The notes: generated by a model not told the origin, from the sequence alone. A stretch of 64,000 nucleotides of DNA from Gammaproteobacteria bacterium (GCA_965225625.1 CBDDBH010000022.1:66103-130102), one strand, 5' to 3'. Numbered from the stretch's first letter, positions 23,502 through 62,026 are shown. Numbers and translations: made by a program.

Positions 23502-23562
23502 GGCGGACTCTGTTACAATAATATGCCGAACTCTCGGTAGGCGCGAACGGCAGGCAGGCAAA

Positions 23563-25408: not shown

Positions 25409-26260
25409 CTAGGACATGAATTTATTCACGTCGACGGGATTGATGAGATCCGGGGTCTTCCAGCCGTCGAGGTCATTTTCGTCCATACACTGCTCGGCAA
25501 ACTTGATCAGCTCTTTGTCCAGCCCGGCGCCTTGAGCAGAAAGCAAATTTTCAAGCCGGATGTTCTCGTAGTTACCCGCATAGTTGCGCTCGTAGAGTTC
25601 ATGGCGTGTGCCGAATTCCGTGCCGATAGCGTCCCACAGCAGGCGCATTATTTTCACTCGCTCCTCGGCGTCCATGCCGAAAGATCCGCACAGATATTTG
25701 TCTAAATATGGTCGGATCTCAGGCGTTTTAAAGTCCACAGCATGCGAGTTCACATAAATCAGACCGCTTGCTACAACGTTCTCAATAATCTCCCGAACCC
25801 GAGGGTAAACCACAGTTGACAGCATGCGGCTTGCATTAGCCCCAATGAGGGCGGGCTGACCATTGCCGTTTGTCGATCGACCGGCGGATTGACGATGGCA
25901 TGATTGAGAAACAACACGCGCTCCTGCGCGCGTCGATACCATGCGCGTGCGTCGTCCTCATAAGGCGCATAAAACTGGGGATTCATTCCCAAGGTCCCAA
26001 TGAAGGAGGCCTTGTAATCAGGGGAACGTCCCATCCAGCCGTAGGTTATTCTTGGCCACTCGACGATAGCGTCACGCCCGCGGGCTAATTCTTCTGCGGA
26101 TTTTGGTACGCGGAAGAACGAATGCGTGAATCCGCCGTTGCCGGTATCGGTAGGGCAGGTGAGAGCGCTTTCTTGTCAGGCGCGTGTAAGGCGTCATAAA
26201 GTCGCGCAACCATGCGCGCCCGATTTCGAGACGCCGGGTGAACCGTAACATCTGCAACGC
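25409..26260 (-). pseudogene. 4-hydroxyphenylacetate 3-monooxygenase oxygenase-component (HpaB family) remnant, frameshifted and N-terminally truncated
   Basis: HpaB C-terminal homology (LYERNYAGNYENIR...; [38 protein letters not shown]) is split over three minus-strand ORFs in different frames. Only ~850 bp of an expected ~1.5 kb gene remains. Confidence 0.6.
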
Positions 26261-30084: not shown

Positions 30085-30455
30085 AGCGCATCGGCCACTA
30101 TTGGCGATGCTATCGGTGGTAAGCGGTCTGACCGTGACTGTCTGAGATCGGACAGGAGCCGATAATCTCAAATGCAAATGATGCTCGTTAAAAAAGCGTT
30201 TCCGCGGAGAGATTGAACGGCCGGACCCGGCCAACTCCGGTCGCACAGCACTATCTTACGAACGGCTGGTTTATCCGCGAAAGCAGTCATACAGCGTTGG
30301 GGGTTGCTTACTAGAGGGTCCGTATATGCTATCCAAAACCCGCTGGCAATGTATCGCCGTCGGAGTTCACATAATTGTAGAGAGCACACCTGCCGACGAT
30401 AAAGCCTTAGCGTACCGTGGGGGCTGATGCTTTTTCGCTTGTTGCGCGTTTTAAC

Positions 30456-31815: not shown

Positions 31816-32805
31816 TTGCCATTGTTCGTGCTGGCGGCATTGACGGCAGCGCAGCCGGCCAAGGCCCATGACATCGGCGTGTCGCAAGCCGAGTTGGTCG
31901 AACATGGTGCCAGCCGATATTCACTGCGGGTGCAGGTGGCCCCGTCTTTAGCATTCATGTTCGGCCCACCGCGGTTGCCCGCTCAGTGCCAACCGGACGG
32001 TAACCCACGAGGCATTCAGGGTATCGGCTGGCGCAGTTTCGACTTCCAATGTAACGAGCCATTGACTGCTAATGATGCACTCGTGCTGCCTTGGCAGCGC
32101 GACGGCATTATGCTGACGGCCCGCTGGCTTCACGGTTACGAGTCACGCCAACTGTTCAGCAATAAGGCGGGCGTCATCACCGTGCCGCTGGCGCAACTAC
32201 ACGCCGGCTCCGGTTCCGGGTTCGACTCGGCCCGTCGTTACACCGGGCTGGGTATCGAACACATTCTGCTGGGTATCGACCACTTGCTGTTCGTGTTGGT
32301 ACTGCTCATCATGGTGCAGGGGCTCTGGCCACTCGTTAAAACCATTACGGGTTTCACCGTTGCCCACAGCATTACCTTGGGTCTGGCCACGCTGGGGTTT
32401 ATCAATGTGCCATCCCGGCCGGTCGAAGCCGCCATTGCGCTGAGCATCGCCTTCGTTTGCGCTGAGATCATCTATGCGTACCGGGGTAAGGCCGGATTAA
32501 CCTACCGCCATCCCTGGCTGGTCGCGTTTGCTTTCGGACTGTTGCACGGGCTCGGATTCGCAGGTGCCCTTGCTAAAATTGGCGTGCCTCCCAATGAGAT
32601 ACCGATGGTATTGCTGTTCTTTAATATCGGCGTCGAGATTGGTCAACTCTTATTCGTGGCAGCGGTGTTGGCCGTGATCGGTTTGCGGAACCGCCTGCGA
32701 CTGGATCGATGGCGCCCGGCGCGACTTGTGACGGCTTACGTCATCGGCGTATTAGCGACTTTCTGGTTCGTGGAACGCACGGTAGCTATTTTTCACTCGA
32801 GCTGA
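31816..32805 (+). CDS. HupE/UreJ-family metal (Ni/Co) transporter with N-terminal periplasmic extension
   Basis: Signature HILLGIDHLLFVLVLLI and a second HGLGFAG motif, with 6 TM helices after a ~150 aa N-terminal domain carrying a signal peptide. Confidence 0.7.
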   Translation: MPLFVLAALTAAQPAKAHDIGVSQAELVEHGASRYSLRVQVAPSLAFMFGPPRLPAQCQPDGNPRGIQGIGWRSFDFQCNEPLTANDALVLPWQRDGIMLTARWLHGYESRQLFSNKAGVITVPLAQLHAGSGSGFDSARRYTGLGIEHILLGIDHLLFVLVLLIMVQGLWPLVKTITGFTVAHSITLGLATLGFINVPSRPVEAAIALSIAFVCAEIIYAYRGKAGLTYRHPWLVAFAFGLLHGLGFAGALAKIGVPPNEIPMVLLFFNIGVEIGQLLFVAAVLAVIGLRNRLRLDRWRPARLVTAYVIGVLATFWFVERTVAIFHSS

Positions 32806-33256
32806 CAGCAAGTAACGACAAGTGGCGCGGTGCCCCGCCACTTTTGTTGCTGTTCGGTCTGCTTACCGTACCCCGTGATCCAGAGATTCGGGGTGTATGT
32901 AGTAAGGGTCCGTGATCCCCTTCTTGCGTGCGGCAATACCAGCGAGAGCTGTGCGCATCAACCGGTCCACCAGAATGCCCGTGCTCATATGACGATTCAT
33001 CAAACAGTGGGCTGTACTCAGTGAACTCGATGGCCACGACCTCGTTCTGTATGGGTACGCTGCGCAAAATGCGCATGGCCTGGATACTCGTCAGGCCGCC
33101 AATATCCTGGGACGCGACTGCCGGCGCGTAGGCTGGATCGATACCGTCGATGTCGAATGAGATGAACACCTTCTTGCCTTTGAGTTCCTTTAAGACCCGC
33201 TTGAGAACCTTGTCAAAACCGTCACGCTCGATCTCCGGCATCATGTGATAGCGCAC
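32786..33256 (-). CDS. arginase-family hydrolase, C-terminal third (continuation in another frame)
   Basis: VFISFDIDGIDPAYAP (SxDxDxxDP motif). The corrected frame upstream reads IIKGEDVVQIGLRG, the arginase IQIGIR motif. Confidence 0.6.
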   Translation of the reverse strand: MRYHMMPEIERDGFDKVLKRVLKELKGKKVFISFDIDGIDPAYAPAVASQDIGGLTSIQAMRILRSVPIQNEVVAIEFTEYSPLFDESSYEHGHSGGPVDAHSSRWYCRTQEGDHGPLLHTPRISGSRGTVSRPNSNKSGGAPRHLSLLAVSSSEK

Positions 33257-33281
33257 TTTGTTGTCGCGTATCCATTGAAGG

Positions 33282-34142
33282 TCATATGCAGAAGGGACTA
33301 AACCCCGCAGACCGATCTGGACGACGTCCTCGCCCTTGATGATTCCCCTTTTCTATGGCGCCGCGGACCATGCTGCCGCTGTGGACATAGTTGCCTTGAA
33401 AGGACGGCCAGGCGTCGAAGTGCGCGTCAACGTGCAGCATCGCGAAGTTGCCGGGACCGTATTTGTCTGCGAGCGCCATCAGCACCCCGTACATCTGTAT
33501 GTGCGTGCCGCCCACCGTCATCGGGACCGCATCCGCTGCCAGAATCTCGCCCAGTACGGTACGGATCTCTTCCAGAGTACGCTGATGGTTAGTGTAGTGT
33601 GCGGCGATGTTGCCGTAATCGGCAATCACGAGGTCGACCAGGTATTCCGTGCGTAAGTACTGGTCGGTGCCGAAGCTGTCGGCACCAAATGTCATCCAGT
33701 CCGGTAGAGTCCGCATGACGTTAGCGGCTAGTCGTGCGCCCGGAATAATATGATTTTCAGCGGCCATGCCGACCACGGCCACGTCAACCTTGCCGGCCTT
33801 CAAATCGTCGGTGGTGAACGCCATTGGCGCACCGAAGTAGGTTGGAAATCCGTACAAGGATTGAAAGCCGGTTTGATAACGTTGTGGATTGACCAACCCC
33901 GGTTCGCGCTGCGGATCTTTCGCTGTGTCCCGGCGAGCATTCCAACCAGCGTTGGTCGGATCGTCAGGATCCATGCGATGCACGCCGACGGGGTCATTGG
34001 GATCCTTCCACGGCATCCAGGGATCCGCCTTCTGCTCTTGCGAAAAGGCGCCTGTGCTGGCCAAAAAGCTGAGCGCTGCAGCGAGAGCAGCAAGGCGTAC
34101 TCGAACGGATGACTTAGTTGCGGAGTTTCTTGCTAACGTCAC
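33282..34142 (-). CDS. secreted arginase/agmatinase-family hydrolase, N-terminal two-thirds (frameshifted)
   Basis: Signal peptide, then arginase motifs VPMTVGGTHIQ (GGDHS-like) and HVDAHFD (DAHxD). The reading frame is lost after GAIEKG. Confidence 0.6.
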   Translation of the reverse strand: MTLARNSATKSSVRVRLAALAAALSFLASTGAFSQEQKADPWMPWKDPNDPVGVHRMDPDDPTNAGWNARRDTAKDPQREPGLVNPQRYQTGFQSLYGFPTYFGAPMAFTTDDLKAGKVDVAVVGMAAENHIIPGARLAANVMRTLPDWMTFGADSFGTDQYLRTEYLVDLVIADYGNIAAHYTNHQRTLEEIRTVLGEILAADAVPMTVGGTHIQMYGVLMALADKYGPGNFAMLHVDAHFDAWPSFQGNYVHSGSMVRGAIEKGNHQGRGRRPDRSAGFSPFCI

Positions 34143-34272
34143 GATACATTCTCCTTTTTCGATTTTGGATTTTCGGAAGGTGAATTTTGAGGCGTTGCAC
34201 GGTCATCGTGAACACATAGCGATCAGACCTGCGTGATTAGTGATGTATGTAAGAATGGACAAACCGATGAGT

Positions 34273-34917
34273 TCAGTCTGCCAGCACGAGCGCGAGTGCC
34301 TGCTGACGGAACTGTTCATTAAATTTCTTTTTGTTTGTTGGCCTTGTTTTCTCATTGCCGAAAAGTACGTATAGCCCTTCAATCAGGGCCATCAACAGAT
34401 AGGCCCGCTGGTTAAGCACATTAGGAATCAGCTTTGGATTAACATCGGCGCAGAGTTGCCGGGTAATGTCATAAAACTGGGCGTAAGCATTCTCCCTGCA
34501 CTGAGCGACAAAGGGGTCATGCACGGAGATGGCCCAGACCTGATAAGAGAACTGCCGCGATTCCGCATTGCGAATATCAATCAGTTGGTAGTCCATGCAG
34601 GTCAGGAAACGGGCCTGTGGGTCGGTTGGCGCCTTGCTCAGCGGTTCTCGCCAGACCGTTCGATACGCCTCTAACATATCATCCAGCATCGAGCGGAACA
34701 GGTCATCTTTCGACTCGAAGTAGTAGCTGAGATTACCCAGGCTGATGCCGGCCGCCTGCGCCACATTGCGCAGGGAGAAACTAGGGTAGCCCCGCGTAAT
34801 CAGCAGCTTTCGCGCGACTTTCAGTATCTTTTTCACTCGATGGCGGCCGCGGCTGCGCAGGGCAGTGCCAGTGCGAACGCGGGAGGGGGTGATATCGGTA
34901 TTTGAAGCAGTCTTCAT
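34273..34917 (-). CDS. TetR/AcrR family transcriptional regulator
   Basis: HTH region LRNVAQAAGISLGNLSYYF. Confidence 0.8.
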   Translation of the reverse strand: MKTASNTDITPSRVRTGTALRSRGRHRVKKILKVARKLLITRGYPSFSLRNVAQAAGISLGNLSYYFESKDDLFRSMLDDMLEAYRTVWREPLSKAPTDPQARFLTCMDYQLIDIRNAESRQFSYQVWAISVHDPFVAQCRENAYAQFYDITRQLCADVNPKLIPNVLNQRAYLLMALIEGLYVLFGNEKTRPTNKKKFNEQFRQQALALVLAD

Positions 34918-34990
34918 GTCAAGCGCTAGGCCGTGTTGGTTCAGTTCCTCACGTTATCGCACGAAAAAATTGGCAATTTAGTAACAAATG

Positions 34991-35013
34991 TCCTATAAAT
35001 ATATCATAGGACG
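34991..35013. promoter_or_regulatory. Palindromic operator candidate GTCCTAT-N9-ATAGGAC in the AT-rich divergent TetR/CMD promoter region
   Basis: 7-bp perfect inverted repeat ~75 bp upstream of the TetR start in a ~33% GC intergenic region. TetR regulators bind such palindromes. Confidence 0.4.
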
Positions 35014-35165
35014 TATGTATCTAATAGCAAGACAGGTTGATTTTGGCAATACCGATACATCTTTCCGCGTCTTACGTAGTTTTGCATTGTCTCTAATTAG
35101 AATGTATTTGCACCGAGATATAGTTATTTTGCTATTTCTCGCAAAAAAGTTATCAGAGGGAAGCC

Positions 35166-35768
35166 ATGTCAAATCGAATCAACCCTTTGCCAAGGGAAAC
35201 CAAGCCTGAATGTGAAACTGCTTTTCAAACCTTTGAAAAACGAATGGGCTTTGTGCCAAATAGTGTTTTAACCATGCAGCGCAAGCCCATGTTAGTAAAT
35301 GCCTTGATGGCATTGAGTAACTCGGTTTACGCAGATCCTGAAGCATTGCTACCAAACAGCCTTAAGGCCTGCATGGCACAGATTGCCAGTACGGCAACTG
35401 GATGTCTTTATTGCCAGGCGCACTTTGGCGGTATAGCGGAACTCATGGATACACCTGTAGAAAAGGTTGAAGCCCTATGGGAGTACCAGACCAGCCCGCT
35501 ATTTTCAGAGGCCGAAAGGGCCGCATTCGACTTCGCGGTTGCAGCAGTCCAGATCCCAAATGCAGTCACTGATGAGGATTTTCAGCGATTGCGGCAATTT
35601 TACAGTGAAGATGAAATTGTCGAACTAATGACACCTCTGATGCACACGGCTTTCTTAAACCGGTGGAATGACACAATGGGCACGCCAATAGAAGAATTTG
35701 CCGTTAGTTTTGGGGAGAAGCATCTGCAAAATGCTAAATGGGAAGCTGGCAAACATTCGAGTTTATGA
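35166..35768 (+). CDS. carboxymuconolactone decarboxylase-family (AhpD-like) protein
   Basis: CxxxH motif GCLYCQAH within a CMD fold. Lower GC (about 47%) than its neighbours. Confidence 0.65.
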   Translation: MSNRINPLPRETKPECETAFQTFEKRMGFVPNSVLTMQRKPMLVNALMALSNSVYADPEALLPNSLKACMAQIASTATGCLYCQAHFGGIAELMDTPVEKVEALWEYQTSPLFSEAERAAFDFAVAAVQIPNAVTDEDFQRLRQFYSEDEIVELMTPLMHTAFLNRWNDTMGTPIEEFAVSFGEKHLQNAKWEAGKHSSL

Positions 35769-35917
35769 ATTTTTGAATTGAAAACACTTAGCCAGAAAGC
35801 TTCGAACTGGGCACGAATTACTTTGGTTCTTCAAGTATCCGTTGGCACGCTCTTTCGTCAATTCGCTGCAGCCGTGGAGCCGCTGGTAAGACAGGATTAG
35901 ATTGCCACAACTACAAC

Positions 35918-36970
35918 TTGACAATGGAGGCGAGCATGGCGGCCCATCGCGACGTACTATTCTGCGGCAGCATCGGACTTGAAGACGCCGAGGCGGTATT
36001 TTGCGCCCTTGCGCAAACGGTCGGCGATCGCGCGAAACGCTACCCGGACGGCGAAACTGGCGTCAGGCATTACTGGATATTGTGGCAGCAGCCCGTATTC
36101 GCGGATCACCCGAATTGCGAACTCGGTATGGAGGTTCCCATTACCCGGTGGGGGAACAAGTTCGAAAATCGGCCTTACTATAAGATGCGCGACGGTTTCG
36201 ATCCTGGTGAGCTCGAATTTCCTGCCATTGGCTACGCCAGAGAGGCGATTGCCTCTTACGAAACATTCAAGCGTCTACGCGATGCGGGAACGATCCCTGA
36301 CGGTGTCCGCTTCCAGGTGGCATTGCCGACGCCGACGGCCGTCATCATCTGTTTCATCGTCGAAGAGCAACGGGCGGCATTCGAATCCGCTTACGAGAGG
36401 GCGCTGCAAAAAGAGGTTGCAGCGATGGTGGCGGCCATTCCGCACAAAGACCTCGCTATCCAGTTGGACGTGTGTCATGAAATCCTGGGATACGATGGTG
36501 GGCCGGAGCCGGTGTTCTACGACGACATTCTGGGTGGCACGGTGGAACGTATCGCTCGGATCTCCAGCTGGGTTCCGAACCCGGTCGAGTTCGGGATCCA
36601 TCTTTGCTACGGCGATCCGGGTCACAAGCACATCAAAGAACCAACCGACACCGGCAGTGCGGTACGTTTTTCCAATGCTATCTGCGAAGGTGTAGACCGC
36701 GTGGTGAATTGGATCCATTTACCCGTACCGCGCGAGCGCAATGATGATGACTACTTCGCGCCGTTAGCGGATCTGCGCGTGCCGGCTGAAACCGAGCTGT
36801 ATCTCGGGCTTGTACATTTGACGGGTGGACTCGCCGGGATCCAGGGTCGCATTGCCACAGCGGAGCGCCACACCGGGCAATTCGGTATCGCAACGGAATG
36901 CGGCTTTGGACGCCGCGACTCGGCGACTATTCCTGCGCTGTTGCAATTGCACACGGATGCCGCCGGATGA
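35918..36970 (+). CDS. MetE/UROD-superfamily (cobalamin-independent methionine-synthase C-terminal-like) zinc methyltransferase-fold protein, function unknown
   Basis: Putative Zn ligands in MetE-like order: H-x-C (IHLCYGD), Glu, and a C-terminal Cys in ATECGFGRR, in a 350 aa barrel-sized protein. Confidence 0.45.
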   Translation: MTMEASMAAHRDVLFCGSIGLEDAEAVFCALAQTVGDRAKRYPDGETGVRHYWILWQQPVFADHPNCELGMEVPITRWGNKFENRPYYKMRDGFDPGELEFPAIGYAREAIASYETFKRLRDAGTIPDGVRFQVALPTPTAVIICFIVEEQRAAFESAYERALQKEVAAMVAAIPHKDLAIQLDVCHEILGYDGGPEPVFYDDILGGTVERIARISSWVPNPVEFGIHLCYGDPGHKHIKEPTDTGSAVRFSNAICEGVDRVVNWIHLPVPRERNDDDYFAPLADLRVPAETELYLGLVHLTGGLAGIQGRIATAERHTGQFGIATECGFGRRDSATIPALLQLHTDAAG

Positions 36971-43479: not shown

Positions 43480-44292
43480 CTACTCGCGATCAATCTTGAC
43501 CGGATTAGTACTGTTCCACCACGGCATATCAGAATAGGCGCGAATATCAATTTCGTGCGTCCAGGTCGAACGATGTTGCTGCGCGAGATGAAAATAAGTA
43601 TCGGCAACCCGCTCCGGCAAAATCAAGCCGTCGTTCTGCCCCTGACTCTCGCGAAGCGCCTGAAACCGCTCGGATCCGAGCAGCTTGCCCAGTGTGTCGG
43701 GCGCATCTACGGCACCGTCGATAACAATGTGCACGATGTGCACGCCCTTTGACGACAGCTCTGCATTCAGCGACTGACACAGCATTCGTCGACCTCCCAT
43801 GGCAGCGGCATGTGAGTGTTGGCCGGCATTACCCCGCACCGCCGCCGTCGATGAGGTAACAAGTATCGTTCCTTTGCTACGCTCAACCATGTGCGGCGCG
43901 ACCGCATGAGCCAGACGATACAGACCAAAGGTACCGAGCCGCCAACCGACTTCGAACGTTTTGTGCGGCGTATCAGCAAGCGTGCGATTACCGATTTGCG
44001 CGCCGAGGTTATAGACCGCAACCTCAATAGGCCCAATGTCAGACTCGATCGATGCAACGAGCTCCTCGATAGTGTCGTCCTCGACCGCATTCACCAACGT
44101 TCCCGAAGCGGACCCATCTGCAGCTTCAATCTCCGCGACCAGTTTATCCAGACCTGCTTGATCACTGCGGCGGCACAAACAGGCGTGATAGCCGGCGCTT
44201 GCAAATCGTTTGGCAAACGTGCCGCCGATACCGGCGCCGGCGCCTATGACTAGGCATACCGGTTTCAAGTTCTCAGCTCCAAAGGAAAGCAA
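43480..44292 (-). CDS. SDR family oxidoreductase
   Basis: Dinucleotide-binding motif VIGAGAGIGGTFA in an SDR-like sequence. Confidence 0.75.
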   Translation of the reverse strand: MLSFGAENLKPVCLVIGAGAGIGGTFAKRFASAGYHACLCRRSDQAGLDKLVAEIEAADGSASGTLVNAVEDDTIEELVASIESDIGPIEVAVYNLGAQIGNRTLADTPHKTFEVGWRLGTFGLYRLAHAVAPHMVERSKGTILVTSSTAAVRGNAGQHSHAAAMGGRRMLCQSLNAELSSKGVHIVHIVIDGAVDAPDTLGKLLGSERFQALRESQGQNDGLILPERVADTYFHLAQQHRSTWTHEIDIRAYSDMPWWNSTNPVKIDRE

Positions 44293-44332
44293 CCATCAGC
44301 AAGTATTGACCGTAGTTTGTCCTCCATTTCCT

Positions 44333-46465
44333 CTACCCCAAATCCCTGGATATATTGTCCTTCCATTCCTTCGAAAAAACGAGAGCGTCTTTTTCGTACA
44401 CAATTAAGTCGGTCTTGATACAGAAAGTTTTCTTATCTGATGTTAATTCAAAATTAGAAATCGTTTTGATATCCCAGTCATCTCTTTTCAATACGATCGA
44501 GTAGTAACCACTCCAGGATGCGCTATTCGGGTCCGTTTTCTCTATCGTCGAGATCCAGTCGTATTGCACCCGCGTTTCGGTGCCGGTTTGATTAATTAGT
44601 GCGCCGCCCGAGTCACTGAAAGTCCGCACCTGAATTTGTCCTGTTTCATCGGGCCCAGTTATCTCCTGTCTATAGTTACTGGGAGACTTACGTGTGACTG
44701 ATAGTTGATCTGTCGGAACTGGCTGTGTAAACACCAGATCTTCCAGATCGTTTGTCCCAATGGGTCTTTCGGGTAGCACCAACTGGCTCGCACCAGTGTG
44801 TATTGTTAATTCGACAGGCTCTGGTGATGGCCACATGATTGGCCAGTAACTTTCTGATATCGAAATCCTGATTTTGTGTCCCTTCTTAAACCGATACGCG
44901 ACGATATTTAGCGGCAATTCAATTTTGTAGATCTGACCGGGTACTAGCGCTTCCGGCTCTGCATGTCCGTCTCTATGTGTCAAATTGAGATAACCGGATG
45001 TCACATACCAGGAGGTACCGTCGGGCTGTAGTTCATTCAATCGTATCGCGATTTTTGCAACCGGTTTATTCACAGACAATGAGAGTTTGACTGTTGGGTG
45101 GCCACAAATTTCAATATCCTTTTCAAGCTCCGCAGAGTCGAAAGTCAGAGACTTACTGTCATCCTCTGATTGATCTCGTGGGAGCTCTGTTTCCATTGCA
45201 AAGGGAAGCCATGCAGTATTGGACAGCCCAACAGTTTGATCCGGCGCTAGCGTAACGGGTTTTTCGCTAGCTGACGTTTTAGCTAAACCCGCAGGATTCA
45301 AAAAATAGTTATTATCCTTGATACGATCAGAGGGCCAGCTTCGCTCTCCTACCCAACGACCTGGGACGTCCTGCGGATAAACCTGCCCAGGTGCTTTTTC
45401 CTGCATGTACACCTGTAGCATCGGTTCTTCCATCATGCCGGTGTCTATACCTTTTAACCAATGGTCCCACCAGCGGACTTCTTCATAGTAGAAACCAATC
45501 GCAGGACCAGGGTTTGCGCTGTCTGGAAAATCATGTCCCTGGGGTCCGATCAATCCTTTTTTAGGTGAATCAAGATGCGCTAACAGGCGTGAAATTGAAT
45601 TCGTATAAGCGTCAATAAAACCACCAACTGCAAAAACGGGGCATCGGATCTGACTGTAGTCTTCACAGACAGATCCATGTTGCCAATAGCCATCCCTTCG
45701 TTGATGTCGCATCCACTTATGTGTTACAGGCCCAACTGCTTCGAGGCGTTTCAGCCATTCAATGTTCCAGTCGGGGCCGAACAATTGCGGGTCAGGCGGG
45801 AGGGACAAGACATTCATGAATAATTGCCCCCATTCGAAATTGGGTCGACTTAATGAACCACCCACATAGTGGGCATCATCCGCGTAACGATCATCGGTGC
45901 TGCCGTGAGTGATAATCGCCTTTAGTTCGGGTGGATTGAGAGCTGCAATCTGAAGTGAATTAAAACCGCCCCAGGAAATACCGCGCATACCGACAGAACC
46001 ACTACACCATGGCTGAGCAGCCAGCCATTTTATAATTTCAATGCCGTCGAGCTGTTCCTGTTTTTCATACTCATCATTGATTATGCCGTCAGATTCTCCG
46101 GTACCACGGATATCTACCCTTACACCTGCATAACCACATGCCGCAGCGTAAACATGCGCAGGTTCATGGCTGTTGCGAGCCAGGTCACGCTTACGATAAG
46201 GCAGATATTCCAGGATGGCGGGTACCGGCGATGCTTGTGCATTTGTTGGTAACCAGATTCTTGCTGCCAGTCGTCTGCCATCCGGCAGTGGTATCCAGAG
46301 GTGTTCGATATTGCGTATGGCCAACTTTTTCTTGAGCGACACCGCACGCGCGGTATCAATCGCTCTAGGGATTTTGCCGCAAACACTCAACGCGCTGACA
46401 GAAGCCAGCGCCAACGCAGACTTCAAAACAGCCCGTCTTGAACGAAGATGTTTGTTTGTGGACAT
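44333..46465 (-). CDS. CocE/NonD-family (S15 X-Pro dipeptidyl-peptidase-like) alpha/beta hydrolase, Tat-exported
   Basis: Twin-arginine signal RSRRAVLKSALALASVSA, nucleophile elbow GISWGG, and a C-terminal beta-sandwich domain; ~45% GC. Confidence 0.8.
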   Translation of the reverse strand: MSTNKHLRSRRAVLKSALALASVSALSVCGKIPRAIDTARAVSLKKKLAIRNIEHLWIPLPDGRRLAARIWLPTNAQASPVPAILEYLPYRKRDLARNSHEPAHVYAAACGYAGVRVDIRGTGESDGIINDEYEKQEQLDGIEIIKWLAAQPWCSGSVGMRGISWGGFNSLQIAALNPPELKAIITHGSTDDRYADDAHYVGGSLSRPNFEWGQLFMNVLSLPPDPQLFGPDWNIEWLKRLEAVGPVTHKWMRHQRRDGYWQHGSVCEDYSQIRCPVFAVGGFIDAYTNSISRLLAHLDSPKKGLIGPQGHDFPDSANPGPAIGFYYEEVRWWDHWLKGIDTGMMEEPMLQVYMQEKAPGQVYPQDVPGRWVGERSWPSDRIKDNNYFLNPAGLAKTSASEKPVTLAPDQTVGLSNTAWLPFAMETELPRDQSEDDSKSLTFDSAELEKDIEICGHPTVKLSLSVNKPVAKIAIRLNELQPDGTSWYVTSGYLNLTHRDGHAEPEALVPGQIYKIELPLNIVAYRFKKGHKIRISISESYWPIMWPSPEPVELTIHTGASQLVLPERPIGTNDLEDLVFTQPVPTDQLSVTRKSPSNYRQEITGPDETGQIQVRTFSDSGGALINQTGTETRVQYDWISTIEKTDPNSASWSGYYSIVLKRDDWDIKTISNFELTSDKKTFCIKTDLIVYEKDALVFSKEWKDNISRDLG

Positions 46466-53123: not shown

Positions 53124-54395
53124 TCACAACGGTTCAAAATTCTCCCTTGGAACCTCGACCAGACTTTTCTGGTCTGCGATAACCGACGCCGCCCGTACGG
53201 CCTGGGAATGTGCTTGCAGACCTGGCATGTCGCCTCCGGTCTGGTTCGCCTTTGCGGCTCTTAACAGGCGCCGTCGGGTGACAATGATGCCGTCATCACT
53301 GGATACCAGATTCTCAGCACTGCGATCCGCAACTCGCCCCTGACTTTCCTGCACCGCCGTATCCTGCATCGCAAAACTTGGAATGCCGGTGAAGCTCACC
53401 CCGGCGCGCTGTGCTTGCCGATCTTGAAGGTAGTCGTTGTTACGATTTGCGTTGCCCTGGTGAGTCCCGGGGACGAACTCCACATGCAATCCGCCGCCGT
53501 TGCGCATTGCCTCACGCTCCATCGTGCTGAACGGTCTATCAATGTAGTAATTGACCGCCCAACTCCAGCACGAGTAATCATCAACCGGTACCCATGCCTG
53601 AGCGTTGAGACTGAGATCTCCCAGGGGAGCAATGATGTTAAAGCAGGGGAAAATAAACTGGGTGACGCGCCAGTAATATTGACCTTCGCCGGCGTCACGA
53701 CGCGCACCAAGCATCAGGCCACCATCGGTTTCAAGCGTTTCGTAGCGCGGATTGTGATCGCTTGCGAGGATATCGAGGATGCGCGAATCCTTGCCTAATC
53801 CTCCAGTCCCCATCACCGGATCGTCGCTCAATGTACCGCGGTGGAGAAAAGAAAGATGACTGGAGTCGAGCCCACCTTCCATTACCTGCAGATAGTTACA
53901 CTCCTGAAGTCGCTTGGACACGAACAGGTTGTCGACGGGTAAGCCGGCCCATTCCAATGCGGGTGGCGACGGTCGTAACGCTGGCGCACCCATGTATACC
54001 CAGATAACACCGCCGCGTTCGAGCGTCGGATATGCGGTCAGGCGTATCTTGTCTCTAAACTTGTTCTCGGCCGGTTCCGACGGGACATCCAAACAGCGCC
54101 CGTTAACGTCGAAGTGCCAACCGTGGTAGGCGCAACGGATCCCGCAATCTTCGACCCGGCCAAAGTATAGAGACGCTTGCCGGTGCGCACAGGCCTCCGC
54201 GATGATACCGACATTGCCCGCAGAGTCGCGAAAGGCCAGCAGTTGTTCGCCGAGCAAGGGTATGCGTACCGGCGGGCAATCCGGGGTCGGTAGTTCCTCT
54301 ACCGTCAGCGCGGGCAACCAATAACGCCGAAACAGCGCACCCATCGGTGTGCCTGCATTGGTGCGCGTTAAGGTGTCGTTGTTTTCGTGCTTCAT
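53124..54395 (-). CDS. alpha-only Rieske oxygenase (phthalate-dioxygenase/VanA/GbcA-like class)
   Basis: Rieske motif CAHRQASLYFG...CAYHGWHF with the N-terminal GTPMGALFRRYWLPA typical of the PDO-type subfamily. Confidence 0.8.
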   Translation of the reverse strand: MKHENNDTLTRTNAGTPMGALFRRYWLPALTVEELPTPDCPPVRIPLLGEQLLAFRDSAGNVGIIAEACAHRQASLYFGRVEDCGIRCAYHGWHFDVNGRCLDVPSEPAENKFRDKIRLTAYPTLERGGVIWVYMGAPALRPSPPALEWAGLPVDNLFVSKRLQECNYLQVMEGGLDSSHLSFLHRGTLSDDPVMGTGGLGKDSRILDILASDHNPRYETLETDGGLMLGARRDAGEGQYYWRVTQFIFPCFNIIAPLGDLSLNAQAWVPVDDYSCWSWAVNYYIDRPFSTMEREAMRNGGGLHVEFVPGTHQGNANRNNDYLQDRQAQRAGVSFTGIPSFAMQDTAVQESQGRVADRSAENLVSSDDGIIVTRRRLLRAAKANQTGGDMPGLQAHSQAVRAASVIADQKSLVEVPRENFEPL

Positions 54396-54511
54396 TGGCT
54401 TAGGCTGGCGCGCACTGATAAAGGCGAGCGTGTGGAATATGCCAACAGTTGGCGAGCCGCACCCGCGCGCACCGTGCCGATACTAATAAATGTAAACGTA
54501 TCGGCCGTGCT

Positions 54512-55036
54512 TTACCCTGCCTCGACCGATAAACCGATAACAACCGCCGTGGAGCAGTGATACACCGCGCTCTTGGTGCCCAGGCACCAATCGATGTCGT
54601 TGCTCTTCTGGGGACGGTACATCGGCTCTTCACGCTCGTTGCGATTACAGACACAACGGCCACAACTGCTCTTGCCACAACAATCGTTATACGAAATGAC
54701 GTAATCCTTGCCATCCGCGGGGTTGAGGCAGGTCCCTATCCAGGTGATGGGCGAGGGCTCGGTGCCAGGTGGGCATTGCGTTTGTGAACCGCCGCAACAG
54801 GCGCACAGGAAACCATCGATCGCACAATGGCGCCAGTATTCGCAGGTCCCCGGATCACCCGGATCTTCGGCGGGCCCGGGCGCGCGTGACGGCGACTCTG
54901 CGCGTGCGATCGGTAATACAGGAATGGTCGCAGCGCCGACCATGGCGGTGCCGAACTTGGATAGAAAACTGCGTCGGGAAGTCTGCCGTGCAAGGTTGCG
55001 TGAGAAACGTTCGGACCAACGGTCTAACCAGTTCAT
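54512..55036 (-). CDS. mauA: methylamine/aromatic-amine dehydrogenase light (TTQ-bearing) subunit
   Basis: Tat leader TSRRSFLSKFGTAMVGAATIPVLPIAR, near-identical in pattern to known MauA leaders. Mature domain CEYWRHCAIDG...CPPGT...YNDCCG...PMYRP...NDIDWCLG...YHC carries both TTQ tryptophans and a Cys-rich disulfide core. Confidence 0.88.
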   Translation of the reverse strand: MNWLDRWSERFSRNLARQTSRRSFLSKFGTAMVGAATIPVLPIARAESPSRAPGPAEDPGDPGTCEYWRHCAIDGFLCACCGGSQTQCPPGTEPSPITWIGTCLNPADGKDYVISYNDCCGKSSCGRCVCNRNEREEPMYRPQKSNDIDWCLGTKSAVYHCSTAVVIGLSVEAG

Positions 55037-55071
55037 AGTGTGAAGCCTCGTTGCGGTAACAGATTGCAGTC

Positions 55072-56214
55072 TTAGGGAGTTTGGATCACGGTCAGCGTAC
55101 TGGTCGCGCTCAGTTCAACACCGCGCAGACGTTTACCGGTTTTTGCGTCTAACACCTGTAGTTCCGGGCTTTCCAAATTGACGGTATACAGTAGTGGTTT
55201 GTCGTCGCTGCTCACGTTGACCGAGGTCGCATGATGTTCTAGTTCGATACGCTGCACACGCTTCTTTGAGACAAGGTCGTATACCCAGATCTGCTCGGCC
55301 GGTGCTTTGTGTGAGCCGGGCCCGCCCTGATGCATAAGCACGTACATCCTTTTGCTCGCGCTGTGGATGGCGAAGAGCTGATAGCCACCAGGCAGCCAGT
55401 TGTCGGTGCGATCAGCGTCTGTTTGCAGTGACCATGGTTTGGCCAATTTCGGGGTTGCGCCGGCGCCGTCGAATGCGTAGACATCGCCCTGGAAGGATAG
55501 GAAATACCACGTCGAACCGTCTCTTACCGCATCCTCATTGACCAGATCCTTGGACGGGTCGAAAAGCTGTTTGCTCCGCGACTTCTTCGCCGCCTTGCCT
55601 GTATCGTCCAGCGTAATGGTCAGCAGGCTGCCGTCGGCACAAAGCATATGTACGTTGCGCGCATCGCCCGGGTATACGAAAGCGCAGCCGGCCGTGTCGA
55701 TCTCGCCAATGAATTTGCGCGCTTTGGTATCGACTACGGTCACAGTTTGCGCCGGCGTGAAGTTGTAGCTGAGCAGAAAACGGTCGTCGTCGGTTAAACC
55801 CATGTGCACGAGCGTGGGGATACTCAACAGTTGTTTCGGCGGCAAGATTACCTCGCCAACGGCGTCCAGAGTCGTTGGATCGAAGATGCTGAGTACGTCC
55901 GTGCGTACCCCGCGGGTGCCGCGCGAATAAAATGTATCGGTCGAATAGATGACGCTGTAGTCCGAAGGCATCAGCAGCGCATCGTGGAAGCCGCCGGTGG
56001 ACAACATGCCCAGGACGGAGCCATCGTCTGCGTTCACCAGGTAGGCGCGACCGTCGATCATGTTGAAAAAGGCGATGTCGTTAACCCAGACCCAGTGCGG
56101 GTCGAGTTTCGCCGGTAGTTTGGCAACGCTGATCTGTTCAGGTTTCAGTTCCGCCTGTGACACCGATGACCAGAAGATCAAACTTAGCGCGAGGACTGAG
56201 AATAGTCGTGCCAT
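55072..56214 (-). CDS. mauB: amine dehydrogenase heavy subunit (7-bladed beta-propeller)
   Basis: Sec signal MARLFSVLALSLIFWSSVSQA. A 380 aa propeller-sized protein 36 bp upstream of mauA in the same orientation. Confidence 0.7.
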   Translation of the reverse strand: MARLFSVLALSLIFWSSVSQAELKPEQISVAKLPAKLDPHWVWVNDIAFFNMIDGRAYLVNADDGSVLGMLSTGGFHDALLMPSDYSVIYSTDTFYSRGTRGVRTDVLSIFDPTTLDAVGEVILPPKQLLSIPTLVHMGLTDDDRFLLSYNFTPAQTVTVVDTKARKFIGEIDTAGCAFVYPGDARNVHMLCADGSLLTITLDDTGKAAKKSRSKQLFDPSKDLVNEDAVRDGSTWYFLSFQGDVYAFDGAGATPKLAKPWSLQTDADRTDNWLPGGYQLFAIHSASKRMYVLMHQGGPGSHKAPAEQIWVYDLVSKKRVQRIELEHHATSVNVSSDDKPLLYTVNLESPELQVLDAKTGKRLRGVELSATSTLTVIQTP

Positions 56215-56320
56215 AGTGCTATCCGCCTAGTGTGGTGAAGCTGAGAACATGAATTGTCGTGGGTTCACTCGTGCGTATCAAGTGGTTGCCGTACCAGCAG
56301 GCCGGCGGGCCAGATAATCA

Positions 56321-57127
56321 TCAAGCTTGCTCCCACCAACTGATGACCTGCCAGGTATTGCCGTCCACTGCCGGCAACGCCCGTTCGCCGGTTTTGTAGT
56401 CCGCCAGCCAACTCAGGGCAAGCGTTTCACCTTCGCGCCACGGCAACGTTGACAGTCGAATTATGTAGTCGTCGTCTGCAGAATCGCGCTGCGTGTAAGA
56501 GAATTCGCAATCGACCAACGCCCTCACTACATCGAGATCCTCTTTTGCCAGCTCTGCCAATATCGGCAGGGCAACTTCGGCATCGATGGGTTGCACACGA
56601 TCGCGCGCGAACACTGCGTGCGTGTCGGTTACCAACAGGCAGGTCTTCGACGCAGCGTTTTCCAGTACGAGGTGTGCGGCGAATGATTGCGATGCAGATT
56701 CCACTCGCCAGTCTTCTTCGTAGGCACCACTTGGCGCCCACTCGATCATGCAAGCGTTGTTCTCGCACCATTGGAACCAACCCGGCTCTGGAAAATTGAC
56801 GACGGGTTGCAGCGTAAAACCATGCCCACCGGGCGCCCAGTTCGCGGTCGGATACGGCTTCGCGTCCACGTCGCAGGTTGTTATCACACAGGAGCAATCT
56901 TGCGCCGCCAGTGCCAATAATTCGTCATAGTTGCACGCGGCGAGCGCATCACGGTCGGACAAATCTGGACGGTCCGCGGGGATCCGCATGTCGGCGGCTG
57001 CGGACGAGGTTTGCAACCACAGCACGCGCGTGGAGGTGTCTTCGTCACCGTTTTTGTAACGAATGTATCGCCGTCGCCAGCAACCGATCATCTCGGCGGG
57101 GACGGTGGGGGCGGCCTTATTCTGCAT
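56321..57127 (-). CDS. Cys-rich cytoplasmic hypothetical protein at the head of the mauBA transcription unit
   Basis: 268 aa, no signal peptide, Cys clusters (DCSCVITTCD, WCENNACMIEW), no CxxCH; no family recognised. Confidence 0.45.
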   Translation of the reverse strand: MQNKAAPTVPAEMIGCWRRRYIRYKNGDEDTSTRVLWLQTSSAAADMRIPADRPDLSDRDALAACNYDELLALAAQDCSCVITTCDVDAKPYPTANWAPGGHGFTLQPVVNFPEPGWFQWCENNACMIEWAPSGAYEEDWRVESASQSFAAHLVLENAASKTCLLVTDTHAVFARDRVQPIDAEVALPILAELAKEDLDVVRALVDCEFSYTQRDSADDDYIIRLSTLPWREGETLALSWLADYKTGERALPAVDGNTWQVISWWEQA

Positions 57128-61279: not shown

Positions 61280-62026
61280 ATGGACAAAGAACTACAAGAA
61301 CTGAAAACGCTGTTGCTGGACGTCAAGCAAGGTCTCGATCAGCTGCAGGATGTCGACGCTTTGCAGCGATTGATTGTCAACTACGCGCGCGGCTGTGATC
61401 GCGGCAATGATCCAAGCCTGATCGGTCCGCTGTTTTCGCAAGATGGCACCTGGGAGTGTAAAGGCTTCGGCAAATACATCGGTCGCGACAAAGTCGCAAA
61501 GGGTCTGCACGGCATCGCCGGTGAAAAAATATGGTGGTCGTTGCACTACATGATCTCGCCGCTGATTGACATCGCGCCTTCGGGTGATAGCGCCACGGGG
61601 TTCTGGTATCTGTGGGAGGCCGCCACCATACCGAACGAGGAAACCAACGACGCAGAAGCACACTGGATCGGCGGCACCTATGACACGGAGATGGTAAAGC
61701 GTGACGGCGAATGGTTCTTCAAGAGTATGGAACTGAAGTTGCACATGGCGAGCGGCTACGACCATGGCTGGGTAAAAAAGCGCTTCCCAAATGGGACCCG
61801 CAAACAACCGTATTTCGAAAACCTGGATGCCGGCAGCTACCATTGGTGTGCCTGTGGCCGCTCCAACAACCAACCGTTTTGCGACGGCTCGCACAAAGAG
61901 ACCAAGCGCACGCCGCTGGAATTCAAAGTGGAGGTCCAGGAAAACGTTGTGCTGTGCGGTTGTAAATACTCCAAGACCAAACCGTATTGCGATGGCTCGC
62001 ACTTGAATCTGAACCTAGATGGGTGA
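61280..62026 (+). CDS. NTF2/SnoaL-like domain fused to two CDGSH-type [2Fe-2S] domains
   Basis: N-terminal ~165 aa SnoaL-like region, then CACGRSNNQPFCDGSH and CGCKYSKTKPYCDGSH (two complete CDGSH signatures). Confidence 0.7.
   Translation: MDKELQELKTLLLDVKQGLDQLQDVDALQRLIVNYARGCDRGNDPSLIGPLFSQDGTWECKGFGKYIGRDKVAKGLHGIAGEKIWWSLHYMISPLIDIAPSGDSATGFWYLWEAATIPNEETNDAEAHWIGGTYDTEMVKRDGEWFFKSMELKLHMASGYDHGWVKKRFPNGTRKQPYFENLDAGSYHWCACGRSNNQPFCDGSHKETKRTPLEFKVEVQENVVLCGCKYSKTKPYCDGSHLNLNLDG

What the first reader, a model, noticed from the sequence alone, without database searches (positions are those of the whole stretch)
53124..57127. Compact mauB-mauA TTQ amine-dehydrogenase locus lacking mauE/D/G/C, embedded between a Rieske oxygenase and a Cys-rich hypothetical
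The MauA-like light subunit keeps both TTQ tryptophans (YWRHC and DIDWC contexts), a Tat leader nearly superimposable on known MauA leaders, and a 14-Cys core. It sits 36 bp after the propeller heavy subunit. Canonical mau/aau clusters place mauE and mauD between B and A, and carry mauG (di-haem TTQ maturase) and amicyanin adjacent. None of these is visible within about 10 kb on either side here. Instead the unit is hypothetical-mauB-mauA-Rieske alpha-only oxygenase, all co-directional. This suggests either an unusual TTQ maturation route or a pathway coupling a Rieske N-demethylase-type oxygenase (PDO/GbcA class) to amine oxidation.
Basis: partly seen in the sequence, partly recalled or inferred. 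Interest (0 to 1): 0.75.

Follow-up and report, generated by a model that had tools for sequence, protein, structure and literature searches.

The report
Compact two-gene TTQ amine dehydrogenase locus
This is an intact pair of genes for a periplasmic quinone-cofactor amine dehydrogenase of the aromatic-amine type that lacks its usual helper genes next door; that layout turns out to be common among its relatives, so it is only a mildly unusual arrangement.

Summary
On the minus strand a heavy-subunit gene (56214-55072) is followed after 35 bp by a light-subunit gene (55036-54512). No mauE, mauD, mauG, amicyanin, mauF/J/M/N or small cytochrome c lies anywhere in the 64-kb window or in the 10 kb beyond its end.

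- Both subunits are closest to Alcaligenes faecalis aromatic amine dehydrogenase (AADH), not to methylamine dehydrogenase.
- The TTQ tryptophans are W99 (SPITWIGTC) and W150 (NDIDWC). The "YWRHC" tryptophan is not a TTQ residue.
- Absence of linked mauG and amicyanin is the rule across 110 related loci, so it is not special here.
- Direct B-A adjacency occurs in 35 of 120 classifiable related loci.
- The window belongs to a monophyletic B-A-only clade under strong purifying selection (dN/dS 0.06-0.09).
- Three of five MAGs in that clade also carry a B-E-D-A-cytochrome c locus. One such locus occurs in the same sequencing run as the window's locus.

Maturation and electron-acceptor functions are therefore most likely supplied in trans, but this is not proven for the window's own genome. 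The flanking hypothetical protein normally partners a Rieske oxygenase. The downstream Rieske protein is isophthalate-dioxygenase-like.

The parts
55072..56214 (-). Heavy (alpha) subunit of an AADH-type TTQ amine dehydrogenase. 380 aa, beta-propeller, with an N-terminal Sec-type signal peptide (MARLFSVLALSLIFWSSVSQA/ELK).
   Evidence: PF06433 E=3.5e-56. TIGR02658 210 bits, below its 454 cut-off. Best solved relative is A. faecalis AADH 2h3x_A at 204 bits, against 168 for MADH. dN/dS 0.093 against L112.
54512..55036 (-). Light (beta) subunit precursor, 174 aa. It has a twin-arginine leader (R30-R31). Predicted TTQ residues are W99 (quinone-bearing) and W150 (cross-link). D118 is the predicted catalytic base. 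D74 and Y159 match MADH Asp32 and Tyr119; S162 occupies the Thr122 position. There are 14 Cys.
   Evidence: PF02975 E=4.4e-54. TIGR02659 169 bits, below its 197 cut-off. 2agl_D 173 bits. Residue mapping to P. denitrificans MauA and the Cys columns are. These residues are conserved in at least 97% of 86 family members. dN/dS 0.058.
55037..55071 (-). 35-bp B-A spacer with a GAGG ribosome-binding site. In canonical clusters mauE and mauD sit here.
   Evidence: Sequence read. Canonical B-E-D-A order seen.
56215..56320 (-). 106-bp spacer between hyp268 and the heavy-subunit gene. It contains a promoter-like match (56281-56253). In the sister lineage L112/L113 a 382-aa Rieske oxygenase gene occupies this position.
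   Evidence: The promoter match is no more than chance expectation (4 found, 3.9 expected).
56321..57127 (-). 268-aa cytoplasmic protein of unknown function with two lipocalin-like beta-barrels in tandem. It is a neighbour and probably not part of the dehydrogenase system.
   Evidence: No Pfam or NCBIfam hit. About 275 homologues, all unannotated. AlphaFold2 pLDDT 93; best PDB match 3rby_A. In L112-L114 its stop overlaps the start of a Rieske oxygenase alpha gene.
53124..54395 (-). Alpha-only Rieske oxygenase of the phthalate family (isophthalate-dioxygenase-like), cytoplasmic. It lies 116 bp (or 167 bp from the alternative start) downstream of the light-subunit gene. It is a neighbour; functional coupling is not shown.
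   Evidence: PF00355 + PF19301. PDB 9ina_A 413 bits, E=1e-122. 9INA is the isophthalate dioxygenase of C. testosteroni KF1 (PMC12445078).

Best explanation
The two genes encode a functional periplasmic alpha2-beta2 amine dehydrogenase of the aromatic (aralkyl) amine dehydrogenase type.

Inferred from homology:
- The heavy subunit is exported by its Sec signal.
- The light subunit is exported via its long twin-arginine leader and is folded with seven disulfides.
- Its W99 is oxygenated and cross-linked to W150 to give tryptophan tryptophylquinone (TTQ).
- The enzyme oxidises a primary amine to the aldehyde plus ammonia, with D118 as catalytic base.
- It passes electrons one at a time to a soluble periplasmic carrier.

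Shown here:
- The locus belongs to a monophyletic clade, mainly of gammaproteobacterial MAGs, in which the ancestral B-E-D-A-cytochrome c cluster has been reduced to B-A.
- The pair remains under strong purifying selection.
- It is inserted into varying catabolic islands for aromatic and nitrogenous compounds.

Inferred:
- The missing functions are supplied in trans. These are the MauE/MauD disulfide system, the cytochrome c or azurin acceptor, and whatever completes TTQ in AADH-type enzymes.
- The most likely source is a paralogous B-E-D-A-cytochrome c locus elsewhere in the genome.
- The neighbouring hypothetical protein and Rieske oxygenase are cytoplasmic catabolic genes and have no role in cofactor maturation.
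For: Family and catalytic residues.

Clade structure: in an NJ tree the window groups with L004, L006, L007, L008, L010, L087, L091 and L093 (all B-A-only), sister to B-E-D-A-cytochrome clades. L112, also B-A-only, is the closest relative at 90% light-chain identity.

Selection: dN/dS is 0.058 (A) and 0.093 (B) against L112. The leader, all Cys, both Trp and the catalytic Asp are conserved in all ten clade members; the Asp32 equivalent (D74) is conserved in nine and is Ser in L093.

Architecture survey: of 120 classifiable loci, 85 are (B)EDA, 13 are BA-cyt-ED and 22 are BA with no E/D in the locus. E and D are therefore positionally mobile and dispensable in cis.

Trans supply:
- MAG GCA_020850735.1 holds L006 (BA) and L104 (B-E-D-A-cyt).
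- MAG CAZSZW01 holds L008 (BA) and L005 (D-A-cyt).
- MAG CAYGQN01 holds L004 (BA) and L029 (A-cyt).
- The B-E-D-A-cyt locus L109 is in Logan run ERR14231557, which also holds the window's exact locus as L003. Its tetranucleotide correlation with the window is 0.95 and its GC is 0.56, inside the range of the window's own chunks, 0.925-0.973.

MauE acts as a generalist DsbB-like oxidase with MauD as its DsbA-like partner, and its distribution is decoupled from MauA (bioRxiv 10.64898/2026.03.05.709764).

Neighbourhoods of clade members differ.
Against: - No second locus could be shown in the window's own genome. The L109 proteins have no NCBI copy, whereas the window's proteins do. L109 may therefore belong to a related organism in the same sample. 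Tetranucleotide similarity does not separate species (L097-L100, from other samples, score 0.96).
- Only 64 kb plus 10 kb of the genome was visible.
- The other two clade MAGs in the genome collection showed no second locus. They are fragmentary, and only the best 80 of 329 loci were returned.
- No electron acceptor was identified.
- TTQ formation, substrate and activity are untested.
- How AADH-type enzymes complete TTQ without a linked mauG is not settled, to my knowledge.
Confidence: 0.6

Rival explanations
1. Self-sufficient compact module. The genome has no MauE/MauD at all. The seven disulfides of the light subunit are made by the general DsbA/DsbB system. TTQ is completed by the same unlinked or unknown factor, or by the autocatalysis, that serves all AADH-type enzymes. 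A housekeeping azurin or cytochrome c accepts the electrons.
For: - Twenty-two of 120 classifiable loci have no E/D within up to 10 kb on either side.
- The B-A-only clade is monophyletic and under purifying selection.
- MauE/MauD are functionally DsbB/DsbA-like and interchangeable in E. coli assays (bioRxiv 10.64898/2026.03.05.709764).
- Linked mauG is absent family-wide.
- No NCBI copy of the candidate second locus was found.
- The clade has a light-chain signature (E137 in place of R/K, M139, A157) that could reflect altered partner requirements.
Against: - Three of five clade MAGs in the genome collection do carry a B-E-D-A-cytochrome locus.
- Such a locus is present in the same sequencing run as the window's locus.
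- The Cys pattern is unchanged from the E/D-linked relatives.
- From my own knowledge: mauD and mauE mutants of MADH and AADH producers lack active enzyme even though those hosts have Dsb systems.
Confidence: 0.25
2. The genes hypothetical-B-A-Rieske form one functional unit. Either the neighbours provide a new TTQ maturation route, or the amine dehydrogenase is metabolically coupled to the Rieske oxygenase.
For: - All four genes are co-directional with short spacers.
- The order CN-hydrolase / agmatinase-like / hyp / (oxygenase) / B / A / LigXa-type Rieske recurs in L112/L113, where the light chain is 90% identical.
- Rieske oxygenases and acyl-CoA ligases also flank another clade member, L093.
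- A speculative route is conceivable: aralkylamine to aldehyde to aromatic acid to ring dioxygenation by an isophthalate-dioxygenase-like enzyme.
Against: - Clade members at 81-85% identity sit between an arylamine N-acetyltransferase and a DUF1989 gene, with no hyp268 and no Rieske gene.
- No hyp268, Rieske or agmatinase homologue lies next to B-A in the 80 genome loci.
- The conserved partner of hyp268 is an oxygenase alpha subunit, also where no B-A is present (L114).
- hyp268 and the Rieske protein have no signal peptide, whereas TTQ maturation in MADH is periplasmic (PMC7876137).
- hyp268 has a lipocalin-like fold with no redox-cofactor motif.
- No aldehyde dehydrogenase gene lies in the cluster.
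Confidence: 0.1
3. A decaying remnant. A paralogue that lost its accessory genes and no longer yields active enzyme.
For: - Accessory genes and the electron acceptor are missing.
- Several neighbouring genes in the window look broken: a split arginase-family gene and an HpaB fragment.
Against: - Both reading frames are intact, with signal sequences.
- dN/dS is 0.06-0.09.
- The TTQ tryptophans, the catalytic Asp and all 14 Cys are conserved in all ten clade members; the Asp32 equivalent is conserved in nine (Ser in L093).
- The same architecture persists across lineages whose heavy chains have diverged to 53-59% identity.
Confidence: 0.04

Closest known systems
Aromatic (aralkyl) amine dehydrogenase of Alcaligenes faecalis (AADH, aauBEDA-orf2; PDB 2AGL/2H3X and others)
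   Same: - It is the best solved relative of both subunits.
- The 14-Cys pattern, both TTQ tryptophans, the catalytic Asp and the leader type are the same.
- There is no linked mauG or amicyanin. This was seen here in annotated aau-type loci and family-wide. From my own knowledge it was reported for A. faecalis by Chistoserdov 2001 and by Hothi et al. 2005.
   Different: - Here aauE, aauD and the downstream monohaem cytochrome c are missing from the locus.
- The light-chain tblastn match to the P. aeruginosa AauA used as the aau reference is about 47% identical over the matched stretch; the identity to the A. faecalis chain itself was not computed.
- Substrate is unknown.
- The genomic setting is a marine-type catabolic island rather than a dedicated aau operon.
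Methylamine dehydrogenase of Paracoccus denitrificans (mauRFBEDACJGMN)
   Same: - Same two-subunit family (PF06433 + PF02975).
- The equivalents of beta-Trp57, beta-Trp108, Asp32, Asp76 and Tyr119 are all present.
- The twin-arginine leader is very similar.
   Different: - Scores are below both MADH equivalog cut-offs.
- Identity is 46% (light) and 32% (heavy).
- There are 14 Cys rather than 12.
- None of mauF, E, D, C, J, G, M or N is present.
BA-cyt-E-D and BA-cyt loci of other uncultured Gammaproteobacteria, Myxococcota and Binatia (e.g. L015, L019, L022, L045, L053)
   Same: Heavy- and light-subunit genes are directly adjacent. This shows that E and D need not lie between them.
   Different: Those loci keep a cytochrome c gene, and often keep E/D just downstream. 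The window's clade keeps neither.

Membership tests
TTQ-dependent amine dehydrogenase (MADH/AADH superfamily) | Light subunit with the Me-amine-dh_L domain | tested here: met
   PF02975 182 bits, E=4.4e-54, covering profile positions 3-112 of 113.
TTQ-dependent amine dehydrogenase (MADH/AADH superfamily) | The two tryptophans that form TTQ (MADH beta-Trp57 and beta-Trp108) | tested here: met
   W99 and W150 align with them. Both are conserved in at least 97% of 86 relatives.
TTQ-dependent amine dehydrogenase (MADH/AADH superfamily) | Catalytic and active-site residues (Asp76, Asp32, Tyr119, Thr122 of MADH) | tested here: met
   D118, D74 and Y159 are present. Position 122 is Ser, a conservative change.
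TTQ-dependent amine dehydrogenase (MADH/AADH superfamily) | Disulfide-rich light-chain core and a long leader with a twin-arginine motif | tested here: met
   14 Cys in the AADH columns. The leader QTSRRSFLSKFG aligns with the MauA and AauA leaders.
TTQ-dependent amine dehydrogenase (MADH/AADH superfamily) | Beta-propeller heavy subunit with a signal peptide, encoded alongside | tested here: met
   PF06433 E=3.5e-56. The signal peptide was read from the sequence. No dedicated signal-peptide predictor was available.
TTQ-dependent amine dehydrogenase (MADH/AADH superfamily) | The TTQ cofactor is actually formed and amine-oxidising activity is present | not testable with these tools
   Needs protein chemistry.
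Methylamine dehydrogenase sensu stricto (mau cluster) | Scores above the TIGR02659 and TIGR02658 equivalog cut-offs | tested here: not met
   169 bits against a cut-off of 197, and 210 bits against a cut-off of 454.
Methylamine dehydrogenase sensu stricto (mau cluster) | Linked mauE, mauD, amicyanin (mauC) and mauG | tested here: not met
   No tblastn hit in 64 kb. No matching Pfam family in any scanned ORF.
Aromatic amine dehydrogenase type (aauBEDA + cytochrome c) | Closer in sequence to AADH than to MADH, with the seven-disulfide Cys pattern | tested here: met
Aromatic amine dehydrogenase type (aauBEDA + cytochrome c) | aauE and aauD between B and A, and a c-type cytochrome gene downstream | tested here: not met
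   The B-A spacer is 35 bp. The only credible CxxCH motif in the window is in a PQQ alcohol dehydrogenase about 31 kb away.
Aromatic amine dehydrogenase type (aauBEDA + cytochrome c) | Preference for aralkylamines such as tyramine, phenylethylamine or tryptamine | not testable with these tools
   Only suggestive context is available: aromatic-catabolic neighbours here, and homogentisate-pathway genes next to the sister B-E-D-A locus L089.

The most novel reading that the evidence does not exclude
The B-A-only clade makes mature, seven-disulfide, TTQ-bearing enzyme with no dedicated MauE, MauD or MauG anywhere in the genome, and uses a non-cognate electron acceptor. TTQ biogenesis in AADH-type enzymes would then proceed by a route different from the MauG paradigm (general Dsb machinery plus an autocatalytic or as yet unknown oxidant). 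These two-gene modules would be the minimal system in which to find it.
Probability: 0.2. Interest if true: 0.6.

Novelty: new variant of a known kind. Interest (0 to 1): 0.35.

Why it matters
- TTQ enzymes are the textbook case of a protein-derived cofactor made by a dedicated maturase set (MauG, MauE, MauD).
- This survey shows that the AADH-like branch is large: more than 4,300 sequence clusters at 90% identity.
- That branch almost never has mauG linked, and in about 30% of loci E and D do not lie between the subunit genes.
- One clade, mainly of gammaproteobacterial MAGs, keeps only the two structural genes and places them in different catabolic islands, with at least two light-chain loci per MAG in three of five clade MAGs.
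- If helper functions are shared in trans, this is ordinary paralogue economy.
- If they are truly absent, the two-gene modules would be a minimal system for asking how TTQ is completed without MauG.
- Either way, annotation pipelines that call these proteins 'methylamine dehydrogenase (amicyanin)' are probably wrong about both substrate and partner.

Tried and rejected
1. Looking for a second mau/aau locus in the window's own genome.
- I searched for MauD homologues and looked up three candidates. One, P0131/L109, is in the same sequencing run as the window's locus. None has an NCBI copy, so same-genome status stays unproven.
- The NCBI record of the window could not be displayed, because identical places are collapsed in the output.

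2. Composition test. Tetranucleotide correlation is compatible with the same lineage (0.95) but does not discriminate, since loci from other samples score 0.96.

3. Protein search over greedy longest-ORF calls of the high-GC loci. It gave no hits because the ORF choice was unreliable there. I replaced it with tblastn.

4. Literature. The held library does not contain the key AADH genetics papers, and three review look-ups failed. Statements about Chistoserdov 2001 and Hothi 2005 rest on my own knowledge.

5. Promoter and terminator scan. Matches were no more than chance, so operon boundaries remain undetermined.

6. Rfam and tRNA scans of the window found nothing.

7. hyp268 as a maturase. Rejected on three grounds: lipocalin-like fold, no export signal, and a conserved pairing with an oxygenase gene.

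8. Assembly artefact. Rejected because independent assemblies agree.

9. Pseudogene. Rejected on dN/dS and residue conservation.

It was used only for architecture statistics.

Full report
**1. What is at the coordinates**

The minus strand between 59.6 and 53.1 kb carries six co-directional ORFs:
- a carbon-nitrogen hydrolase (59639-58518)
- an agmatinase-like ureohydrolase (58433-57426)
- a 268-aa protein with no family match (57127-56321)
- a heavy-subunit gene (56214-55072, 380 aa; PF06433, E=3.5e-56)
- a light-subunit gene (55036-54512, 174 aa; PF02975, E=4.4e-54)
- a Rieske protein (54395-53124; PF00355 + PF19301)

The heavy- and light-subunit genes are 35 bp apart, with a GAGG 9 nt before the light-chain ATG. 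The same arrangement is present, with identical proteins, on an ENA contig and on two Logan assemblies, and the proteins are also on record from NCBI. It is therefore not an assembly artefact.

**2. The absence claim**

- I took annotated MauR/F/B/E/D/A/C/J/G/M/N from the P. denitrificans PD1222 plasmid.
- I also took B/E/D/A and the cytochrome genes from Novosphingobium and P. aeruginosa aau-type plasmid loci.
- tblastn of these against the window at E<=0.01 returned only the heavy and light subunits, plus a generic LysR match.
- Pfam scans of 59 of the 61 predicted ORFs (the two shortest ORFs, 30168-30389 and 34988-35209, were not scanned) show no MauE, no MauD-type redoxin, no CCP_MauG and no cupredoxin.
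- The only credible CxxCH motif belongs to a PQQ quinohaemoprotein alcohol dehydrogenase at 21.4-23.6 kb.
- The ENA contig extends about 10 kb past the window end and adds only another Rieske oxygenase and a TonB-dependent receptor.

**3. What kind of enzyme**

Both subunits score below the NCBIfam equivalog cut-offs for methylamine dehydrogenase (169 against 197, and 210 against 454). Both are closer to A. faecalis aromatic amine dehydrogenase than to any MADH structure. The light chain scores 173 bits against 132, and the heavy chain 204 against 168.

Alignment with P. denitrificans MauA used mature numbering, which I checked against the known positions D32, W57, D76, W108, Y119 and T122. 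It maps as follows:

| MADH residue | Window residue | Context |
|---|---|---|
| beta-Trp57 | W99 | SPITWIGTC |
| beta-Trp108 | W150 | NDIDWC |
| Asp76 | D118 | |
| Asp32 | D74 | |
| Tyr119 | Y159 | |
| Thr122 | S162 | |

The 14 cysteines occupy exactly the AADH columns, whereas MADH has 12. The leader carries the twin-arginine motif and aligns closely with known leaders.

**4. How unusual is the architecture**

The light chain has more than 4,300 relatives among 90%-identity clusters, and 329 and 415+ confirmed loci in the genome and metagenome collections. I classified 160 fetched loci by tblastn. Of these, 120 had enough upstream sequence to classify:
- 85 are (B)-E-D-A, usually followed by a 130-150-aa protein with a CxxCH motif, which is a monohaem cytochrome c
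- 13 are B-A-cyt-E-D
- 22 are B-A with no E or D anywhere in the fetched locus

Across 110 loci (1.55 Mb) there are only two weak MauG-like matches, and no amicyanin, MauF or MauJ. Absence of linked mauG and amicyanin is therefore a property of the whole AADH-like branch. To my knowledge this was already noted for the A. faecalis aau cluster. What is specific to the window is the loss of E, D and the cytochrome.

**5. The B-A-only clade**

In a neighbour-joining tree of light chains the window groups with L004, L006, L007, L008, L010, L087, L091 and L093. All are B-A-only, and the group is sister to B-E-D-A-cytochrome clades. L112, fetched later and also B-A-only, is the closest relative.
- Light chains within the clade are 73-90% identical to the window's.
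- Heavy chains are only 53-59% identical, except L112 at 83%.
- All ten members keep the leader, both tryptophans, the catalytic Asp and all 14 Cys; nine keep the Asp32 equivalent, which is Ser in L093.
- dN/dS against L112 is 0.058 (light) and 0.093 (heavy).

The genes are therefore maintained by selection. A three-residue signature (E137 in place of R/K, M139, A157) distinguishes the clade.

**6. Where the missing functions may come from**

Three of the five clade MAGs in the genome collection also have a B-E-D-A-cytochrome-type locus:
- GCA_020850735.1 (L006 plus L104)
- CAZSZW01 (L008 plus L005)
- CAYGQN01 (L004 plus L029)

A complete Fer2-B-E-D-A-cytochrome locus (L109) occurs in Logan run ERR14231557, which also contains the window's exact locus. 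Its GC (0.56) and tetranucleotide profile (r=0.95) are within the window's internal range.

However, its proteins have no NCBI copy, whereas the window's do. I therefore cannot show that it lies in the same genome.

A 2026 preprint shows that MauE is a generalist DsbB-like disulfide oxidase with MauD as the DsbA-like partner. It also shows that the distributions of MauE and MauG are decoupled from that of MauA. Both trans supply and replacement by general Dsb machinery are thus mechanistically reasonable. In MADH, TTQ maturation takes place in the periplasm after export (PMC7876137).

**7. The neighbours**

*hyp268.*
- It has about 275 unannotated homologues.
- Its AlphaFold2 model (pLDDT 93) is a tandem lipocalin-like beta-barrel; the best PDB match is 3rby_A with a query-normalised TM-score of 0.53.
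- It has no signal peptide.
- In L112/L113 (72% identical) and in L114, its stop codon overlaps the start of a Rieske ring-hydroxylating alpha-subunit gene. L114 has no B-A at all.
- Its conserved partner is therefore an oxygenase. That oxygenase gene is missing in the window, where only 106 bp separate hyp268 from the heavy-subunit gene.

*The downstream Rieske protein.*
- It matches PDB 9ina_A at 413 bits. 9INA is the isophthalate dioxygenase of C. testosteroni KF1 (PMC12445078).

*Conservation of the neighbourhood.*
- The order CN-hydrolase / ureohydrolase / hyp / (oxygenase) / B / A / Rieske is conserved only in the closest sister lineage.
- Clade members at 81-85% identity lie between an arylamine N-acetyltransferase and a DUF1989 gene, near molybdenum hydroxylase genes.
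- L093 lies between a TonB-dependent receptor and an acyl-CoA ligase plus oxygenase.

The common theme is catabolism of aromatic or heterocyclic nitrogen compounds, not a fixed operon. Promoter and terminator scans were uninformative. No RNA family or tRNA is present in the window.

**8. Verdict**

This is a real and intact locus. It is a new architectural variant, B-A only, of a known enzyme kind, the AADH-type TTQ amine dehydrogenase. The variant is common in public metagenomic data, although I found no description of it in the literature I could search.

The most probable mechanism is an ordinary TTQ dehydrogenase whose disulfide, cofactor and electron-acceptor helpers are encoded elsewhere (confidence about 0.6). 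A truly helper-free maturation route remains possible (about 0.2-0.25) and would be the interesting outcome.

Interest is moderate to low (0.35).

Noticed in passing
window 56321-57127 (-); L112 8001-9949; L114 6001-7937: hyp268 belongs to an unannotated family of about 275 proteins with a confident tandem lipocalin-like beta-barrel model. In relatives its stop codon overlaps the start of a Rieske ring-hydroxylating alpha-subunit gene, which suggests a conserved two-gene oxygenase module. That oxygenase gene is missing in the window.
   Followed up: partly
window 53124-54395 (-): The Rieske protein is a close homologue (413 bits) of the recently solved isophthalate dioxygenase of Comamonas testosteroni KF1 (PDB 9INA). 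No cognate reductase gene was seen nearby. The ORF allows a 423-aa or a 406-aa start.
   Followed up: partly
L093-L096 (ENA ERZ28763718, ERZ21829562, ERZ28669063): A second B-A-only locus (light chain 73% identical) occurs in the same ENA sample as the window's contig. Its order is TonB receptor / B / A / acyl-CoA ligase / Rieske oxygenase, it has GC 0.50, and transposase genes are adjacent. The Asp32-equivalent of its light chain is Ser.
   Followed up: partly
window 32786-34142 (-): An arginase-family gene appears split into two adjacent ORFs: 33282-34142 matches profile positions 2-148, and 32786-33256 matches 174-263. This may be a frameshift or a pseudogene.
   Followed up: no
window 25409-25942 (-): A 177-aa ORF matches only the C-terminal domain of 4-hydroxyphenylacetate 3-hydroxylase (HpaB). 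It may be a truncated gene.
   Followed up: no
window 61280-62026 (+): A fusion of a SnoaL-like domain with two CDGSH iron-sulfur motifs sits between a Rieske oxygenase alpha gene and an FAD-linked oxidase gene. It could be the electron-transfer partner of the alpha-only oxygenases. The ENA gene caller splits it into two genes (L001).
   Followed up: no
window 21351-23561 (-): A PQQ-dependent quinohaemoprotein alcohol dehydrogenase with a C-terminal cytochrome c domain. It carries the only credible haem c motif in the window.
   Followed up: no
L097-L103, L107-L109 (about 5830-6300 in the full-length loci): In one group of B-E-D-A-cytochrome loci a 150-aa 2Fe-2S ferredoxin-like (Fer2) gene lies immediately upstream of the heavy-subunit gene; in L097-L103 it overlaps its start, in L107-L109 it ends 10 bp before it. 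This is an unusual companion for a periplasmic enzyme cluster.
   Followed up: no
L126 (JABAHS010017704.1): Two heavy/light gene pairs lie in one locus, in the order B-A-cyt-A-B.
   Followed up: no
window 34001-36000 and 44001-46000: Two stretches with GC of about 0.49 against a background of 0.56. The second covers the S15-family peptidase gene. They may be recently acquired segments.
   Followed up: no
L015, L019, L022, L124, L125, L129, L137, L139: A separate clade has the order B-A-cyt-E-D-cyt. The accessory genes have moved downstream of the structural genes instead of being lost.
   Followed up: partly
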